64,000 nucleotides of DNA from an uncultured Christensenella sp. (GTDB lineage Bacteria > Bacillota > Clostridia > Christensenellales > Pumilibacteraceae), in assembly GCA_949948895.1 (NCBI GenBank), contig CATLHE010000005.1, forward strand, positions 2,306 to 66,305, in the 5' to 3' direction. This document shows positions 7,926-11,272 of this stretch, piece by piece. Position 1 is the stretch's first letter. Each line of letters starts with the position of its first letter. The translations under genes and the position numbers were made by a program. The notes beneath the pieces are model-generated. The model worked only from the letters and a program-made list of their open reading frames with translations, did not search any database and was not told where the DNA came from.

Positions 7926-8522
7926 ATGGAGAACAAGCTCGGGATAACCGATGAAAAAACACTCGCCGCCGCGGAAGAGCGGATAGAAAAGAAACGCGCG
8001 AAAGAGCTTTTCGATTCGGGTCGGCTCGCGAAAATGCCCGTCGGCACGTACGCGGGGCTTAAAGAGATACATATAGCGCTGTTCGGTGACGTGTACGACT
8101 TTGCCGGCGAGCTTCGGACTGTCAATATCGGAAAGGGCAGTATGCGGTTTGCGCCCGCGGAATCGCTCGACAGCGCTATCAAGTTTGTGGACATCATGCC
8201 GCACGGCAGTTTTGACGAGATCATGGACAAGTTCATACAAATGAACAGCGTCCACCCGTTCCGTAAAGGCAACGGCAGAGCGATGCGGATTTGGCTGGAC
8301 GTCATGTTCGCAGAAGCGTTCGGCAAGCTCGTCGATTGGCGCACGGTCAATAAGGACGCGTACAATATAGCAATGGAGCACTGCTCGCTCGATAAGCGCG
8401 GCATTGTCGCGATCATCTCGGGCTCGCTCACCGACAAGGTCGGGCGCTCGATGTTCCTGAACGGTATCGACGCGAGCTTTGCGCTCGAAGGTCTGTGCTC
8501 GTACAGAACGGAAGATCTGTAG
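7926..8522 (+). CDS. Fic-domain protein, class III type (C-terminal auto-inhibitory helix)
   Basis: HPFRKGNGRAMR (Fic motif with K at the D/E position); C-terminal SFALEG matches (S/T)xxxE(G/N). Confidence 0.85.
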   Translation: MENKLGITDEKTLAAAEERIEKKRAKELFDSGRLAKMPVGTYAGLKEIHIALFGDVYDFAGELRTVNIGKGSMRFAPAESLDSAIKFVDIMPHGSFDEIMDKFIQMNSVHPFRKGNGRAMRIWLDVMFAEAFGKLVDWRTVNKDAYNIAMEHCSLDKRGIVAIISGSLTDKVGRSMFLNGIDASFALEGLCSYRTEDL

Positions 8523-8529
8523 CCAAGCC

Positions 8530-8735
8530 TTACGCTTGACCGCCTGTCGTGTGTTTGCATGGATGATTGATTTTGCATAGCACCCGAACAAACACGGTTT
8601 GGATTTTTGTCGTGTGCCAACCAAATGTTGGACGATTGTCGTGTGTAGGCTTTTGTGTTAATTTATTGTTTCACCCGAATAAAGCGTTAATGTTTATAAA
8701 CCGTTCGTAGGGCGCGACAATCTCGGCGCCCAGTT
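8530..8735. repeat. Intergenic REP-like cluster (families A and C)
   Basis: Three TGTCGTG units with CCAA hairpins; GTAGGGCGC..GCGCCC at about 8706-8731. Confidence 0.7.
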
Positions 8736-9353
8736 GCATTTAGTTCCGCAATTATTCTGGTGTAACAATAAATAAATCACCTACGTAAATACATAACAAC
8801 ATCGATTTGTAATCGCAAGCTATGCTGAGCGTACCATTAAATAAATGATTTATGCACACGCTATAAACGTTAAACTTCTATTAAATAGTGGTCGATTGAG
8901 AAAATCAGTGTATGCTAATATCACGTGATATTGTATTTATAATCTTGATATGTATCTATAGTTTAGCACAAAGTATTAATTAGGTGCATCCGCTTGCCTT
9001 GTTTTTCTTTTTTCTCATAGGCTTAGTGTGACCATCGTCGTCACGACACAGCGCACGCATGCCCCTTTCTTATGGGACTATCTTAATATTTAAAATTTTG
9101 TTTTCAAACTATAAAAAAAATAAAAGTTGACAAAAAATATGTGTTATTTTTATGTGTTTCTTCTTATGATTTAGTGAGTGTTTACAAAAGCCCATGGTAA
9201 AAGTGGTATTTTAATGAATTTCACTTATAGATAAAATAATGATTAAGAATTATTACAATACTTTAATTTATTAAATTTAATATTACTATGCATATGGATA
9301 ATATGTTGAAAAAAATTGAAATTTCTGATATAATCATTTTAAAAGGAGCTGTT

Positions 9354-9989
9354 ATGGATTTTTTAATGTCTATTATTACAGGAATAGTATCTTCTGTAAT
9401 TGTGTCTTGTTTTATTTGGATTGGTCAAAAGATTATTAGAACTAGATATTATTCTGACATTGCTAGAGTGTATAATACTAAAGAGAGTGGGTTTAAAGCA
9501 ATCAATAATGATATGAGACAAGCATCTGAAGTGAAGACCCTCGCAGTGCGTGGACAATCGCTAATTGACAAAAATGCTTTTAGTAATTTATGGGATACTG
9601 AGAACTGTAATCGCAAAATTGAAATTATTATCTCTGATATAGACAATCAAAAGCTTATATCACAGCGTAGCAAAGCAAATTGTATAGGTGAGGATACGTA
9701 TAAAAAAGGTATAGAGATAGTTCTTAAAGAATTAACGACAAAACAGCAAATCTATCAAAATCTAACACTCCTTACTCATACAACTGACTTGTCATTTAAG
9801 CTTTTTATCATGGATCATTGCATGTATGTTTTGTATTATCAAAACAATAAGAATGTTAACAAATCTAGAATAGTTAAATATAAAAGCGATACAGGGGCTT
9901 ATATGGCTTTTCAACATTATTACGATAGCATAAAGTCTAATAGCAGCATAAAAATCTATAATACTTTATTGGGTGTTAAAAATGGATAA
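9354..9989 (+). CDS. N-terminal TM helix + PLD-like fold (DUF5919-like) protein
   Basis: SD AAGGAG before ATG 9354 (preferred to the track start 9288); hydrophobic first ~25 aa; IEIIISD..N...QR, SFKLFIMD, YV.YY, AF..YYD.I pattern resembles DUF5919. Confidence 0.55.
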   Translation: MDFLMSIITGIVSSVIVSCFIWIGQKIIRTRYYSDIARVYNTKESGFKAINNDMRQASEVKTLAVRGQSLIDKNAFSNLWDTENCNRKIEIIISDIDNQKLISQRSKANCIGEDTYKKGIEIVLKELTTKQQIYQNLTLLTHTTDLSFKLFIMDHCMYVLYYQNNKNVNKSRIVKYKSDTGAYMAFQHYYDSIKSNSSIKIYNTLLGVKNG

Positions 9990-11097
9990 TTTTTTGTCTG
10001 GAATTATACAATTAGGAAATAGAGTAAATAGTAAAGATGATATACTGGTTTTAAATGATTATTGGTTTAACAATATTCATACGCTAAAATCCGTATTACC
10101 TAAGTGTATAATATCACCCTACGAATATGCATTTAGTCATATTCCCGCATTCATCCAAATGCTAGGGATACCGTTTATATTTTTAAACATAGGTGAAATT
10201 AAGCAATTAAAAGCTGGAGAATACGTGAGTATAGATTTTAATAATAATTCTGTAGGCTCTAATTCGCATTACGATAGTTTTTATAACGATAAAATGCTTT
10301 TTGAAAACGGGGTTTGTTTTTATTCATCAATTAAAGGTCAAAAAATAGATAGTTATCTCATTAGTCAGTCGTCTGGAGTGGGTTTAGTTTCAACAGAGTT
10401 TTTGTTTTATAAATCAAAGAATATTTCAAAAAGGCATCAATTTAATGTGCTCAGTAATCTTTGCAAGCAAAATCCAACATTGGATTATACAATAAGATTA
10501 TTTGATATTTGTGTGGATAAAATCCCTGTTTGGGCACAACAAAAATATTCAAACCACAAGTGTAATATCGGCAGGGGTGTCAATTTAGGTTCTACCGACA
10601 GCGAAAAAAATTTGTTTAATCAATTGTCTGTTATCAAAGAATTATCAAAAAAATATAAGATTTCAGTACTTGTCCCATATTTGACTGACATAGATGAAAT
10701 AATGAAAATTAAAATGTTTTTACAGCAGAATTTTTGTAATAATGTTAGACTTGGTGCTATGATAGAGTCAGTCGATATTTTGCCGATCATTAAAGAGTTG
10801 AATAAAATTGTTGATTTTTATTCTTTAGGAACAAATGACATTGTCCAATCATTTTTTAAAATCGATAGGACAAAACCTATTTGTTTCAATAAAGTGGATT
10901 TAAAAAATAAAGAATTTCGATTTCTTTTACTTGAAATTTTGACTCTGGTCCAGAATAAAAGTATAAGAGTTTGCGGACAACTTCCTGTAATGCCAGGAAT
11001 GTTATCCGCTATGATTGAAATCGGATACAAGCAATTTACAGTTAATCCATACTGGATAAAATATTTAAAAGCTGTTGCGTTTAAATGCATAATTTAA
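9982..11097 (+). CDS. Minimal PTS enzyme-I/PEP-utiliser-like protein (His swivel + PEP-binding TIM barrel)
   Basis: FSHIPAFIQMLGIP..GEYVSID (mobile His domain); GVGLVSTEFL, TIRLFDICVDK, GAMIES, FYSLGTNDIVQSFFKIDR, VCGQ; ATG 9982 overlaps the upstream stop by 8 nt. Confidence 0.8.
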   Translation: MDNFLSGIIQLGNRVNSKDDILVLNDYWFNNIHTLKSVLPKCIISPYEYAFSHIPAFIQMLGIPFIFLNIGEIKQLKAGEYVSIDFNNNSVGSNSHYDSFYNDKMLFENGVCFYSSIKGQKIDSYLISQSSGVGLVSTEFLFYKSKNISKRHQFNVLSNLCKQNPTLDYTIRLFDICVDKIPVWAQQKYSNHKCNIGRGVNLGSTDSEKNLFNQLSVIKELSKKYKISVLVPYLTDIDEIMKIKMFLQQNFCNNVRLGAMIESVDILPIIKELNKIVDFYSLGTNDIVQSFFKIDRTKPICFNKVDLKNKEFRFLLLEILTLVQNKSIRVCGQLPVMPGMLSAMIEIGYKQFTVNPYWIKYLKAVAFKCII

Positions 11098-11272
11098 AAT
11101 CGATGTCGATTATTGACGACAGAATACGAAACAATTCGCGATCCGTATGAATGTGTGTGGTTGATAAAAACGGTCAAGGTATATCCTATATATCCCGCTG
11201 TATTTCGCCAAACTTGACAGTTATATCGTTTTATGATATATTGTTTTTAATGTTTCAAGGAATAGCGGCTTT

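What the first reader, a model, noticed from the sequence alone, without database searches (positions are those of the whole stretch)
9982..11097. Minimal enzyme I: phospho-His swivel and PEP barrel without the HPr-binding domain
Seen: about 370 aa. SH (phospho-His position), the R of TIRLFD, the E of MIES, GTND, DR and the C of VCG are retained. The GLYRTE arginine is replaced (GLVSTE) and the NPFLGxR loop is degenerate. No alpha-helical HPr-binding subdomain is present. Established: EI (~570 aa) autophosphorylates from PEP and needs that subdomain to dock HPr. Inference: it autophosphorylates but transfers phosphate to a non-PTS acceptor (partner protein, nucleotide or small molecule).
Basis: partly seen in the sequence, partly recalled or inferred. 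Interest (0 to 1): 0.7.

Follow-up and report, generated by a model that had tools for sequence, protein, structure and literature searches.

The report
Enzyme-I-derived enzyme in mobile defence-like cassette
A shortened relative of the sugar-transport enzyme "enzyme I" is always found next to a membrane-tethered phospholipase-D-like protein in a rare, AT-rich mobile cassette, and this pair looks like an undescribed phosphoenolpyruvate-driven conflict (probably anti-phage) system rather than part of sugar uptake.

Summary
ORF 9982-11097 (371 aa) is an enzyme-I (EI) homologue. It has the phospho-His swivel domain and the PEP-binding TIM barrel (Pfam PF02896, E 2e-29; AF2 pLDDT 88; best fold match is phospho-EI 2hwg). 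It lacks the ~120-aa helical HPr-binding subdomain.

H189, R332, D335, K340, R358, E431, N454, D455, R465 and C502 (E. coli numbering) are kept. R296 is Ser, and the 352-356 loop is lost.

It is not a broken PTS gene. Short EI-like proteins fall on one side of a fully supported branch, apart from all long EIs. The subclade without R296 sits next to one partner family in 11 of 11 loci examined. That partner has a PLD-superfamily fold and lacks the HKD histidine. Its N-terminus is one TM helix (here), three TM helices, or a DUF4062 TIR-like NADase domain.

The cassette (GC 29-38%) has its own promoter. It forms a 2.7-kb island that is absent from same-genus genomes. Elsewhere it lies beside integrases, transposases, R-M, CARF and Pepco modules.

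Best reading: a rare, undescribed conflict or defence module. The mini-EI loads phosphate from PEP onto His53 and passes it to, or makes a ligand for, the PLD-like sensor-effector. The mechanism is inferred, not shown.

The parts
8550..11250 (.). Low-GC island (GC 20-35% against ~55% in the flanks), inserted between the resident Fic gene and the BspA-type LRR lipoprotein gene
   Evidence: Composition profile. Cassette GC 0.293 against 0.530 for the rest of the window. Same-genus genome G004 has typA-Fic-LRR-guaA contiguous with no island. Absent from the other same-genus genomes searched.
9306..9334 (+). Promoter-like site: TTGAAA, 17 nt, TG-extended TATAAT (11 of 12 matches)
   Evidence: It lies inside the 5' extension of the mechanical 233-aa ORF, which supports ATG 9354 as the true start.
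9343..9348 (+). Shine-Dalgarno AAGGAG, 5 nt upstream of ATG 9354
   Evidence: Sequence read.
9354..9989 (+). Partner gene (211 aa): an N-terminal TM/long helix (residues 2-35), then a cytoplasmic PLD-superfamily-fold domain with no Pfam or PADLOC match
   Evidence: AF2 pLDDT 84.7. Foldseek hits: TrmBL2/TrmB C-domain, SauUSI, NucT, Nuc, Zucchini, F13, PssA and a PPK C1-like viral protein. Homologues 25-45% identical stand beside mini-EI genes in 11 loci.
9792..9815 (+). Degenerate HKD motif S147-F-K149-L-F-I-M-D154. The His position is S/A/P/V/I in the family, Lys is K or R, and Asp is usually D or E
   Evidence: Alignments A4 and A6; coordinates.
9777..9779 (+). Invariant His142 of the partner, at the end of the strand before the degenerate HKD strand. 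It is a candidate phospho-acceptor or relocated catalytic His (inference)
   Evidence: Invariant in 13 of 13 sequences; secondary structure.
9982..11097 (+). Mini-EI gene (371 aa). Its start overlaps the partner's stop by 8 nt, which suggests translational coupling
9982..10266 (+). Swivel (phospho-His) domain, residues ~1-95, with FSH His53 at 10138-10140
   Evidence: His invariant in 30 of 30 short homologues. The profile of the two closest proteins aligns residues 4-375 with EI residues ~140-545. AF2 and Foldseek.
10318..11094 (+). PEP-utilizers_C TIM barrel, residues ~113-371. Key codons: Ser137 (=R296) 10390-10392, Arg172 10495-10497, Glu262 10765-10767, Asn285/Asp286 10834-10839, Arg296 10867-10869, Cys331 10972-10974
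   Evidence: Pfam; PDB alignment; clade comparison; coordinates.

Best explanation
The ORF encodes a 'mini-EI', a member of an old and distinct lineage of the enzyme-I branch of PEP-utilising enzymes. It keeps the phospho-His swivel domain and the PEP/pyruvate TIM barrel and never had, or long ago lost, the HPr-docking helical subdomain. It is not part of a sugar PTS.

It is the enzymatic half of a self-contained, horizontally mobile two-gene cassette. The other half is a cytoplasmic PLD-fold domain without the HKD nucleophile. Here that domain is tethered to the membrane by one TM helix.

Proposed mechanism (inferred): the barrel uses PEP to phosphorylate His53. The swivel domain then delivers the phosphoryl group to the PLD-like partner. 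Delivery could be direct (candidate acceptor: the invariant His142 next to the vestigial HKD pocket) or through a small phosphorylated ligand that the pocket binds.

The state of the PLD-like domain would control its N-terminal effector module. That module is a TM helix here, three TM helices in one relative, and a DUF4062 TIR-like NADase in another. The pair would thus act as a conflict system, most likely anti-phage or abortive-infection, that is driven by or reports on PEP. Relatives add a VakA/Tmk-like P-loop kinase and a HIT protein, which hints that a nucleotide-like small molecule is involved.
For: Shown here:
- EI homology and two-domain architecture without the HPr subdomain.
- Invariance of H189, E298, R332, D335, K340, E431, N454, D455 and R465, and near-invariance of C502, across 30 short homologues of 22-39% identity. 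This argues for a working phosphotransfer site.
- In the tree, all 30 short proteins are separated from 32 long EI/PtsP by a branch with 100% support. The 19-row clade that has lost R296 has 99% support.
- A PLD-like partner is adjacent in 11 of 11 loci examined: window, L001, L004, L005, L007, L009, L011, L025, L027, L029, L031. Most have overlapping or nearly abutting genes.
- The partner has a PLD fold. The HKD His is missing while K/R is retained.
- The same PLD-like domain carries three different N-terminal modules: 1 TM, 3 TM, and DUF4062 (Pfam E 5.5e-22; PLD-like part hhalign E 6.6e-21). DUF4062 is reported as a TIR-like NADase effector of anti-phage systems (preprints 10.64898/2026.05.01.722283 and 10.64898/2026.09.04.749371).
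- Mobility: the island is absent from same-genus genomes and an empty site was found. Cassette GC is 29-38% in flanks of up to 61%. Neighbours include an integrase, a resolvase with primase-VapE, and DDE transposases.
- Defence neighbours: a CARF6 CARF_STK_AAA protein directly upstream (PADLOC E 6e-212) plus an HpaII R-M system; trypsin-Trypco1/Pepco; CHAT-NACHT-TPR and DUF4062 genes; a Fic gene matching PDC-S04 here.
- A recurrent accessory kinase (41% identity between loci, matching PADLOC VakA and PDC-M51B) and HIT proteins.
- The cassette has its own promoter, RBS and overlapping genes.
- The host genome lacks canonical EI and a true HPr.
Against: - There are no experimental data of any kind.
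- R296, a phosphate-binding Arg of all characterised PEP-utilising enzymes (established knowledge), is S or C in the whole clade. The 352-356 loop is lost and E504 is Q. PEP-dependent autophosphorylation may be weak, altered or absent.
- Neither protein matches any PADLOC model, and no paper links PEP-utilising enzymes to phage defence.
- Defence-gene neighbourhoods are suggestive only. In the window the Fic neighbour is a resident gene, not part of the island.
- Only about a dozen loci exist, nearly all of them metagenomic contigs.
- A direct contact between mini-EI and the partner could not be modelled, because no multimer prediction was available.
- The partner's invariant His142 could mean that it is itself a catalytic PLD enzyme rather than a sensor.
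- HIT, nucleotidyltransferase, methyltransferase, PPDK_N and inositol-phosphate synthase genes near some loci (L004, L023) would also suit a small-molecule biosynthetic role.
Confidence: 0.45

Rival explanations
1. The mini-EI is itself the killing effector, through metabolite depletion. Once triggered, the phospho-His is turned over by water or by the PLD-like partner acting as a phospho-His phosphatase. The pair then becomes a futile PEP hydrolase that drains PEP. This would be analogous to NAD+, ATP or dNTP depletion in other defence systems.
For: The pyruvate/Mg/Cys half of the site is conserved while the phosphate side is remodelled. The partner has a PLD fold, a family whose chemistry runs through phospho-His intermediates (established knowledge). 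The cassette is found in defence-type contexts.
Against: The partner carries its own swappable effector modules (TM, NADase). That is unexpected if the mini-EI were the effector. No precedent for PEP depletion in defence was found in the literature searches.
Confidence: 0.12
2. A housekeeping-type small-molecule or nucleotide phosphotransferase that happens to be mobile. The mini-EI would use PEP to phosphorylate a nucleotide or sugar-like metabolite bound by the TrmB/PLD-like partner. It would act with the Tmk-like kinase and HIT protein as a salvage, modification or antibiotic-resistance pathway, comparable to rifampin phosphotransferase or PEP-dependent dihydroxyacetone kinase, and not as an immune system.
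For: Recurrent Tmk/dNK-like kinase and HIT proteins. CTP_transf_like, methyltransferase, stand-alone PPDK_N and inositol-1-P synthase genes lie near some loci. The partner's best fold match is the ligand-binding domain of TrmB-family proteins. A sporadic, transposon-linked distribution also suits resistance genes.
Against: The window, L007, L009 and L025 carry only the two genes. The N-terminal swap between TM and the DUF4062 NADase, the CARF, R-M and Pepco neighbours, and the extreme rarity (0 of 400 phylum genomes) fit conflict systems better than metabolism.
Confidence: 0.15
3. The partner is a catalytically active, membrane-tethered PLD-type phosphodiesterase or phosphatidyl-transferase that uses the relocated His142. 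The mini-EI would only regulate it, or supply phosphate for a lipid or cell-envelope modification.
For: His142 is invariant next to the vestigial HKD strand, and K/R149 is retained. The one-TM-plus-single-PLD-domain layout resembles Zucchini/MitoPLD and Nuc-type enzymes, which are among the fold hits.
Against: No PLDc Pfam match even at E<=1. The canonical His position is variable (S/A/P/V/I). In L031 the TM helix is replaced by a soluble NADase domain, so membrane attachment is not essential.
Confidence: 0.1
4. A decaying or non-enzymatic remnant of an EI gene, carried along on a mobile fragment without function.
For: Loss of R296 and of the 352-356 loop. A long terminal branch for the window protein (1.33). 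Very low GC.
Against: The ORFs are intact, with a promoter, an RBS and coupled genes. Nine catalytic residues are invariant over sequences that are only 22-39% identical. The gene pair is conserved in 11 loci. The AF2 model is confident.
Confidence: 0.05
5. A genuine but minimal PTS enzyme I that still phosphorylates HPr.
For: EI is the closest characterised family.
Against: The HPr-binding subdomain is absent. TIGR01417 scores 84 against a cut-off of 342 bits. The genome has no other EI, and its only HPr-like ORF lacks the His15 motif. The cassette was acquired horizontally.
Confidence: 0.02

Closest known systems
PTS enzyme I (PtsI; TIGR01417; structures 2hwg, 2kx9, 2wqd)
   Same: Phospho-His swivel domain followed by a PEP-binding TIM barrel. 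H189, R332, D335, K340, R358, E431, N454, D455, R465 and C502 are kept. It is the best sequence and fold match.
   Different: No helical HPr-binding subdomain (~120 aa missing) and a shortened interdomain linker. R296 is Ser, the 352-356 loop is lost and E504 is Gln. It falls in a separate clade. It is paired with a PLD-like protein instead of HPr, and lies on a mobile AT-rich island.
Pyruvate phosphate dikinase and PEP synthase (PPDK, PpsA)
   Same: The same swivel-His plus PEP-barrel pair, and they also do not use HPr. They rank second among fold matches.
   Different: Those enzymes carry an N-terminal ATP-grasp nucleotide domain (PPDK_N) that is absent here. A stand-alone PPDK_N gene lies a few genes away in one relative only (L004).
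Signal-plus-effector defence systems with swappable effector modules (Pycsar PycTM/PycTIR, CBASS TM- or TIR-fused receptors, Thoeris)
   Same: A two-gene logic in which one conserved enzyme is paired with a protein whose constant ligand-type domain carries either TM helices or a TIR-type NADase at its N-terminus. This comparison is from my own knowledge of those systems.
   Different: The enzyme is a PEP-utilising phosphotransferase, not a nucleotide cyclase or TIR. The receptor-like domain has a PLD fold, not cNMP-binding, SAVED, STING or SLOG. No signal molecule is known. There are no PADLOC hits.
DUF4062 / NIR / Swarozyc-Evangelion NADase defence proteins
   Same: One relative (L031) fuses DUF4062 to the partner's PLD-like domain, directly upstream of a mini-EI.
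   Different: The window's partner has a TM helix instead of DUF4062. The three preprints searched do not mention a PEP-utilising or PLD-like companion.
Non-catalytic PLD-fold domains (TrmB/TrmBL2 ligand-binding domain, MITD1) and phospho-His-using PLD-fold enzymes (Nuc, Zucchini, PPK1 C-domains)
   Same: The partner's fold. A single PLD domain behind one N-terminal helix, as in Zucchini.
   Different: No sequence-level PLDc match. The HKD His is absent. There is an invariant His six residues upstream of the motif's Phe148 instead.

Membership tests
PEP-utilising enzyme superfamily (PF02896 barrel) | PEP-utilizers_C TIM barrel above the Pfam gathering score | tested here: met
   103 bits against a cut-off of 22.8, E 1.9e-29. 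Fold match to EIC, PPDK and PpsA barrels with rmsd about 3 A.
PEP-utilising enzyme superfamily | Swivel domain with a phospho-acceptor His in a (T/S)-S-H context | tested here: met
   FSH His53 is invariant in 30 of 30 sequences. The whole-chain model matches phospho-EI 2hwg over 402 columns. The PF00391 HMM itself does not reach threshold.
PEP-utilising enzyme superfamily | Complete PEP phosphate-binding set (R296, R332, R358 in E. coli EI numbering) | tested here: not met
   R296 is Ser in this protein and S or C in 16 of 18 clade members. R332 and R358 are kept. The 352-356 loop is lost.
PEP-utilising enzyme superfamily | Mg2+ ligands E431/D455, carboxylate Arg R465, proton donor C502 | tested here: met
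   E262, D286, R296 and C331 are present. They are invariant or nearly invariant in the family.
PTS enzyme I (TIGR01417 equivalog) | Whole-protein score above the NCBIfam cut-off | tested here: not met
   84.2 bits against a cut-off of 341.7, matching the barrel only.
PTS enzyme I | Helical HPr-binding subdomain (PF05524) | tested here: not met
   No PF05524 hit. A gap of 115-130 columns against six full EIs.
PTS enzyme I | A cognate HPr (His15) and EII components in the genome | tested here: not met
   There is a single weak HPr-like ORF (24 bits) without the His15 motif, and no other EI in the 94.5%-complete assembly. EII genes were not searched.
PTS enzyme I | PEP-dependent autophosphorylation and transfer to HPr | not testable with these tools
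   This needs a 32P-PEP assay.
PPDK / PEP synthase | N-terminal ATP-grasp nucleotide-binding domain (PPDK_N) | tested here: not met
   No PF01326 hit. The protein starts with the swivel domain.
PLD superfamily (partner protein) | PLD fold | tested here: met
   Foldseek E 7e-7 to 3e-3 against TrmBL2, SauUSI, NucT, Nuc, Zucchini, F13, PssA and PLD.
PLD superfamily (partner protein) | HxK(x)4D catalytic motif with the nucleophilic His | tested here: not met
   The motif reads SFKLFIMD. The His position is S/A/P/V/I in 13 sequences. No PLDc Pfam hit.
Known anti-phage defence systems (PADLOC-DB 2.0.0) | Match of either cassette protein to a defence-system model | tested here: not met
   Only noise-level hits for the mini-EI and none for the partner. 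Accessory or neighbouring genes in relatives do match: VakA/PDC-M51B, CARF6 and R-M.
Anti-phage defence system (functional class) | Protection against phage when expressed in a sensitive host | not testable with these tools
   This needs plaque assays in a laboratory strain.

The most novel reading that the evidence does not exclude
A previously unrecognised class of prokaryotic immune system that runs on phosphoenolpyruvate. An enzyme-I-derived phosphotransferase would either make a phosphorylated second messenger or directly phosphorylate a histidine of a PLD-fold receptor domain. That receptor would in turn gate membrane-disrupting (TM) or NAD+-degrading (DUF4062/NIR) effectors. This would tie abortive infection to the cell's PEP/pyruvate state. 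It would also be the first case of PTS-type phospho-His chemistry recruited into immunity, and of a PLD fold used as an immune receptor.
Probability: 0.3. Interest if true: 0.9.

Novelty: new variant of a known kind. Interest (0 to 1): 0.74.

Why it matters
Enzyme I is one of the best-studied phosphotransfer enzymes. It is known only as the entry point of PTS phosphorelays through HPr or NPr.

This work finds a separate and apparently old lineage that has shed the HPr-docking module. One subclade has remodelled the phosphate side of the active site and is locked to a PLD-fold partner that exchanges TM and NADase effector modules.

If the pair is an immune system, it would add a new energy or signal currency (PEP) and a new receptor fold to bacterial immunity. 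If it is not, it still defines a new acceptor for EI-type phospho-His transfer.

It also offers a natural minimal EI of 371 aa for studying the swivel mechanism. The system has only two genes with their own promoter, so it can be tested directly.

Tried and rejected
- Pattern scans of GTDB representative genomes with the mini-EI pair and with the partner family found no relative.
- IMG/VR with the partner found none. JGI metagenomes returned only the locus already known.
- The plasmid and phage collections hold no partner homologue. For the mini-EI they hold only ordinary ptsI/ptsP.
- 0 of 400 genomes sampled from the same phylum carry the partner.
- PADLOC, Pfam and NCBIfam give nothing for the partner. 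The weak FilR1_middle (E 0.005) and MchS3 hits were treated as noise or at most as a TrmB-like echo.
- Rfam finds nothing in the 830-bp leader or the rest of the island.
- No flanking direct repeats or convincing att sites were found. There is only a 15-nt imperfect inverted repeat at 8799-8813 / 11092-11106.
- Literature searches for PEP-utilising enzymes in defence, 'putative PEP-binding protein', EI paralogues lacking the HPr domain, and VakA found nothing relevant.
- The 233-aa reading of the partner (ATG 9288) was rejected in favour of ATG 9354. Reasons: the position of the promoter and RBS, the gene-caller start and the homologue alignment.
- The GTG 9973 and TTG 9994 starts of the mini-EI were rejected in favour of ATG 9982 because of the homologue N-termini.
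- The upstream 279-aa protein of the R296-retaining clade (L023) shows no similarity to the partner family. The pairing rule therefore holds only for the R296-less clade.
His53-to-active-site and His142-to-pocket distances could not be measured.
Full report
**1. What is at the coordinates**

The mechanical ORF 9973-11097 (+) gives 374 aa. The homologues begin MNRF/MNRY, aligned with MDNF. This ATG overlaps the stop codon of the upstream ORF (9987-9989) by 8 nt.

- Pfam PEP-utilizers_C covers residues 125-368 of the 374-aa reading (E 1.9e-29, 103 bits). Neither PEP-utilisers_N (the HPr-binding subdomain) nor the PEP-utilizers swivel HMM reaches threshold.
- NCBIfam's PTS_I equivalog scores 84 bits against a cut-off of 342.
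- The PDB sequence search aligns residues 133-366 with E. coli EI 289-534, which fixes the residue equivalences.

In 371-aa numbering, with the E. coli equivalent:

| This protein | E. coli EI |
|---|---|
| His53 | H189 |
| Ser137 | R296 |
| Arg172 | R332 |
| Asp175 | D335 |
| Lys180 | K340 |
| Arg198 | R358 |
| Glu262 | E431 |
| Asn285 / Asp286 | N454 / D455 |
| Arg296 | R465 |
| Cys331 | C502 |

The one replacement it reported (GLYRTE to GLVSTE) is real. The NPFLGxR loop is degenerate apart from its Arg.

A MAFFT alignment with six full-length EIs shows a single gap of 115-130 columns between the first beta-hairpin and the strand leading to the phospho-His. That is the helical HPr-binding subdomain.

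An AlphaFold2 model built on a 30-sequence alignment is confident (pLDDT 87.6, pTM 0.89). Its best PDB match is phosphorylated EI 2hwg (E 6e-19, 402 aligned columns), followed by PPDK, PEP synthase and isolated EIC barrels at about 3 A rmsd.

**2. It is a lineage, not a broken gene**

In 5.8 billion clustered proteins the word-indexed search found only one full-length relative (P0002, 36% identity). Ordinary EIs followed at E>=1e-16 over the barrel only.

The exhaustive profile search of 1.84 billion representatives found about 30 proteins at E<=1e-30, most of them 370-450 aa. Aligned, these short proteins all have the same architecture. H189, E298, R332, D335, K340, E431, N454, D455 and R465 are invariant, and C502 is nearly so, at only 22-39% pairwise identity to the window protein.

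A maximum-likelihood tree places all 30 short proteins on one side of a branch with 100% support, against 32 long EI/PtsP sequences. Within the short group:

- A 19-row clade (99% support) holds the window protein. It is the clade in which R296 has become Ser or Cys.
- The other 11 short proteins keep R296.

A column-by-column comparison shows that the R296-less clade has also lost the N352-G356 loop and fixed E504 to Gln. It keeps the Mg2+, carboxylate and Cys positions. So the pyruvate half of the site is under strong constraint, and the phosphate-handling face has been remodelled.

**3. The obligate partner**

The upstream ORF is best read from ATG 9354 (211 aa). A promoter-like TTGAAA-17-TG-TATAAT sits at 9306-9334 and AAGGAG at 9343-9348.

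It has no Pfam, NCBIfam or PADLOC family. A profile of it and its L001 homologue found nine more clusters.

Every locus I could open in the R296-less clade has a member of this family next to the mini-EI gene:

- Window, L001, L004, L005/6, L007/8, L009/10 and L011/12.
- L025/26 (28% identity).
- L027/28 (hhalign E 1.7e-25).
- L029/30, where the partner is convergent downstream (E 1.6e-39).
- L031 (E 6.6e-21).

The AF2 model of the partner (pLDDT 84.7) is a long N-terminal helix followed by an alpha/beta domain. Foldseek matches that domain to the PLD superfamily: TrmBL2/TrmB C-terminal domains, SauUSI, NucT, Nuc, Zucchini, vaccinia F13, PssA and PLD. In the viral library it matches a polyphosphate-kinase C1-like protein.

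The HKD motif is vestigial (SFKLFIMD). The His position is S/A/P/V/I, Lys is K or R, and Asp is usually D or E. An invariant His (His142) sits at the end of the preceding strand. Other invariant polar residues are R66, S69, E90, S94, N98, R105 and S171.

The residues after the TM helix are basic (KIIRTR). By the positive-inside rule the PLD-like domain is cytoplasmic (inference), where it can meet the mini-EI.

**4. Module swapping on the partner**

The N-terminus of the PLD-like domain varies:

- One TM helix in most loci, including this one.
- Three TM helices in L027.
- A DUF4062 domain in L031 (Pfam E 5.5e-22, residues 7-88).

Three 2026 preprints report DUF4062 as a TIR-like NADase effector of anti-phage systems (Swarozyc, Evangelion, 'NIR'), with a catalytic Glu required for defence.

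A constant domain that carries either TM helices or a TIR-type NADase is the arrangement seen in receptor-effector proteins of signalling defence systems such as Pycsar and CBASS (my own knowledge). None of the three preprints mentions a PEP-utilising or PLD-like companion.

**5. Mobility and neighbourhood**

In the window the cassette lies in a 2.7-kb stretch of 20-35% GC between genes of about 55% GC. The same-genus genome G004 has typA, Fic, the BspA-type LRR lipoprotein and guaA in the same order, with 22 nt between Fic and the LRR gene. This is an empty site. None of the 18 same-genus genomes has the island DNA.

The cassette is 29-38% GC in all seven loci measured, even where the flanks reach 61%.

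Neighbours elsewhere include:

- A tyrosine integrase (L025).
- A resolvase with primase-VapE (L009).
- DDE transposases (L005, L007).
- An HpaII R-M pair, and a 1217-aa protein that matches PADLOC's CARF6 CARF_STK_AAA model end to end (E 6e-212) directly upstream of the mini-EI (L029).
- A trypsin-like protease with Trypco1/Pepco, a protease-activated pore-forming toxin (L005, L011).
- CHAT-NACHT-TPR, DUF4062 and Roc-COR genes (L001).

A Tmk/dNK-like P-loop kinase recurs in L001 (overlapping the mini-EI stop), L005/6 and L011. It is 41% identical between L001 and L005 and matches PADLOC VakA and PDC-M51B. A different AAA_18 kinase with a TM helix lies in L027. HIT proteins recur in L005, L011, L004 and, for the R296-retaining clade, in L023.

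The window carries only the two core genes, and its genome has no homologue of the L001 kinase.

**6. Rarity**

- No relative in GTDB representative genomes by pattern scan.
- None in 400 sampled genomes of the same phylum.
- None in PLSDB plasmids, INPHARED phages or IMG/VR.
- The host assembly (1.86 Mb, 94.5% complete) has only one other PF02896 hit, on an 894-aa open frame of a length that suggests PPDK. Its single weak HPr-like ORF lacks the His15 motif.

A PTS role is therefore excluded on several grounds.

**7. Interpretation**

Shown:

- Homology and architecture.
- Constraint on the catalytic residues.
- A separate clade.
- Obligate adjacency to a PLD-fold partner.
- Effector-type module swapping on that partner.
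- Horizontal acquisition.

Inferred: the barrel still uses PEP to phosphorylate His53, and the phosphoryl group goes to the partner. Transfer could be direct (to His142 beside the vestigial phosphate pocket of a fold whose enzymes work through phospho-His) or through a small phosphorylated ligand. The accessory NMP-kinase-like and HIT genes favour a nucleotide-like ligand. The whole is read as a conflict system.

My estimates:

| Claim | Estimate |
|---|---|
| The architecture claim | ~0.97 |
| Functional pairing with the partner | ~0.9 |
| A conflict or defence role | ~0.55-0.6 |
| Any one specific phosphotransfer route | 0.2-0.3 |

The rivals are set out separately: a PEP-depleting effector, a mobile small-molecule kinase or resistance pathway, a catalytically active PLD with a relocated His, a decaying remnant, and a true EI.

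The main caveats are the loss of R296, the small number of mostly metagenomic loci, and the complete lack of experimental or expression data.

**8. Novelty**

The protein is a new variant of a known enzyme kind. The two-gene system matches no PADLOC model and no paper I could find. If it proves to be a PEP-driven immune module, it would be a new kind of system.

Noticed in passing
window 8512-8793: The stretch just after the Fic stop codon is a copy of a short dispersed repeat (about 90-170 bp, 75-88% identity). It has at least 10 further copies on other contigs of the same genome and weaker copies in same-genus genomes. The island's left edge abuts it.
   Followed up: partly
window 8799-8813 and 11092-11106: An imperfect 15-nt inverted repeat (ACATCGATTTGTAAT / ATTTAAAATCGATGT) brackets the AT-rich segment that holds the two genes. 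It could mark the ends of the inserted DNA or could be chance. No target-site duplication was seen.
   Followed up: no
window 7926-8522: A Fic-domain protein (HPFRKGNGRAMR motif) close to NmFic (NCBIfam 202 bits against a cut-off of 230) and to PADLOC candidate PDC-S04 (E 1e-69). It is a resident gene, also present at the same place in a same-genus genome, and is not part of the island.
   Followed up: partly
own genome G000:C1:176351-176527 (L022 1444-1686): The only HPr-like ORF of the genome (80 aa, 24 bits) lacks the His15 motif and keeps a Ser46-like region. The genome has no enzyme I, so it appears to have no PTS.
   Followed up: partly
L029 2315-7969: A 1217-aa protein matching PADLOC's CARF6 CARF_STK_AAA model (E 6e-212) sits 33 nt upstream of a mini-EI (P0138). 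A TM-PLD-like partner lies convergent downstream, and an HpaII-type R-M pair is next door. This is a possible link between the cassette and cyclic-oligoadenylate signalling.
   Followed up: partly
L031 98-2281: A fusion of a DUF4062 (TIR-like NADase) domain with the partner's PLD-like domain, immediately followed by a mini-EI gene (P0150). An S-Y-T-E-L-E motif stands where the DUF4062 catalytic Glu is expected.
   Followed up: partly
L004 3246-7679: Downstream of this relative's cassette lie a methyltransferase, a weak HIT-like protein, a 419-aa unknown protein, a stand-alone PPDK_N (ATP-grasp) protein and an inositol-1-phosphate synthase. A separate ATP-grasp gene could in principle complement a swivel-plus-barrel protein into a split dikinase.
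   Followed up: no
L023 669-3946; proteins P0139-P0165: A second clade of short EI-like proteins (405-450 aa) keeps R296 and has different neighbours. In L023 these are CTP_transf_like, HIT and a 279-aa TM protein unrelated to the PLD-like partner. In L024 there is no partner, only Band_7/NfeD next door. Its function is also unknown.
   Followed up: partly
window 11104-11121: A short hairpin (TGTCGATTATTGACGACA) lies just after the mini-EI stop. Only the minus-strand reading has a T-run, so termination of the cassette transcript is unclear. A strong promoter-like site for the LRR gene follows at 11214-11242.
   Followed up: no
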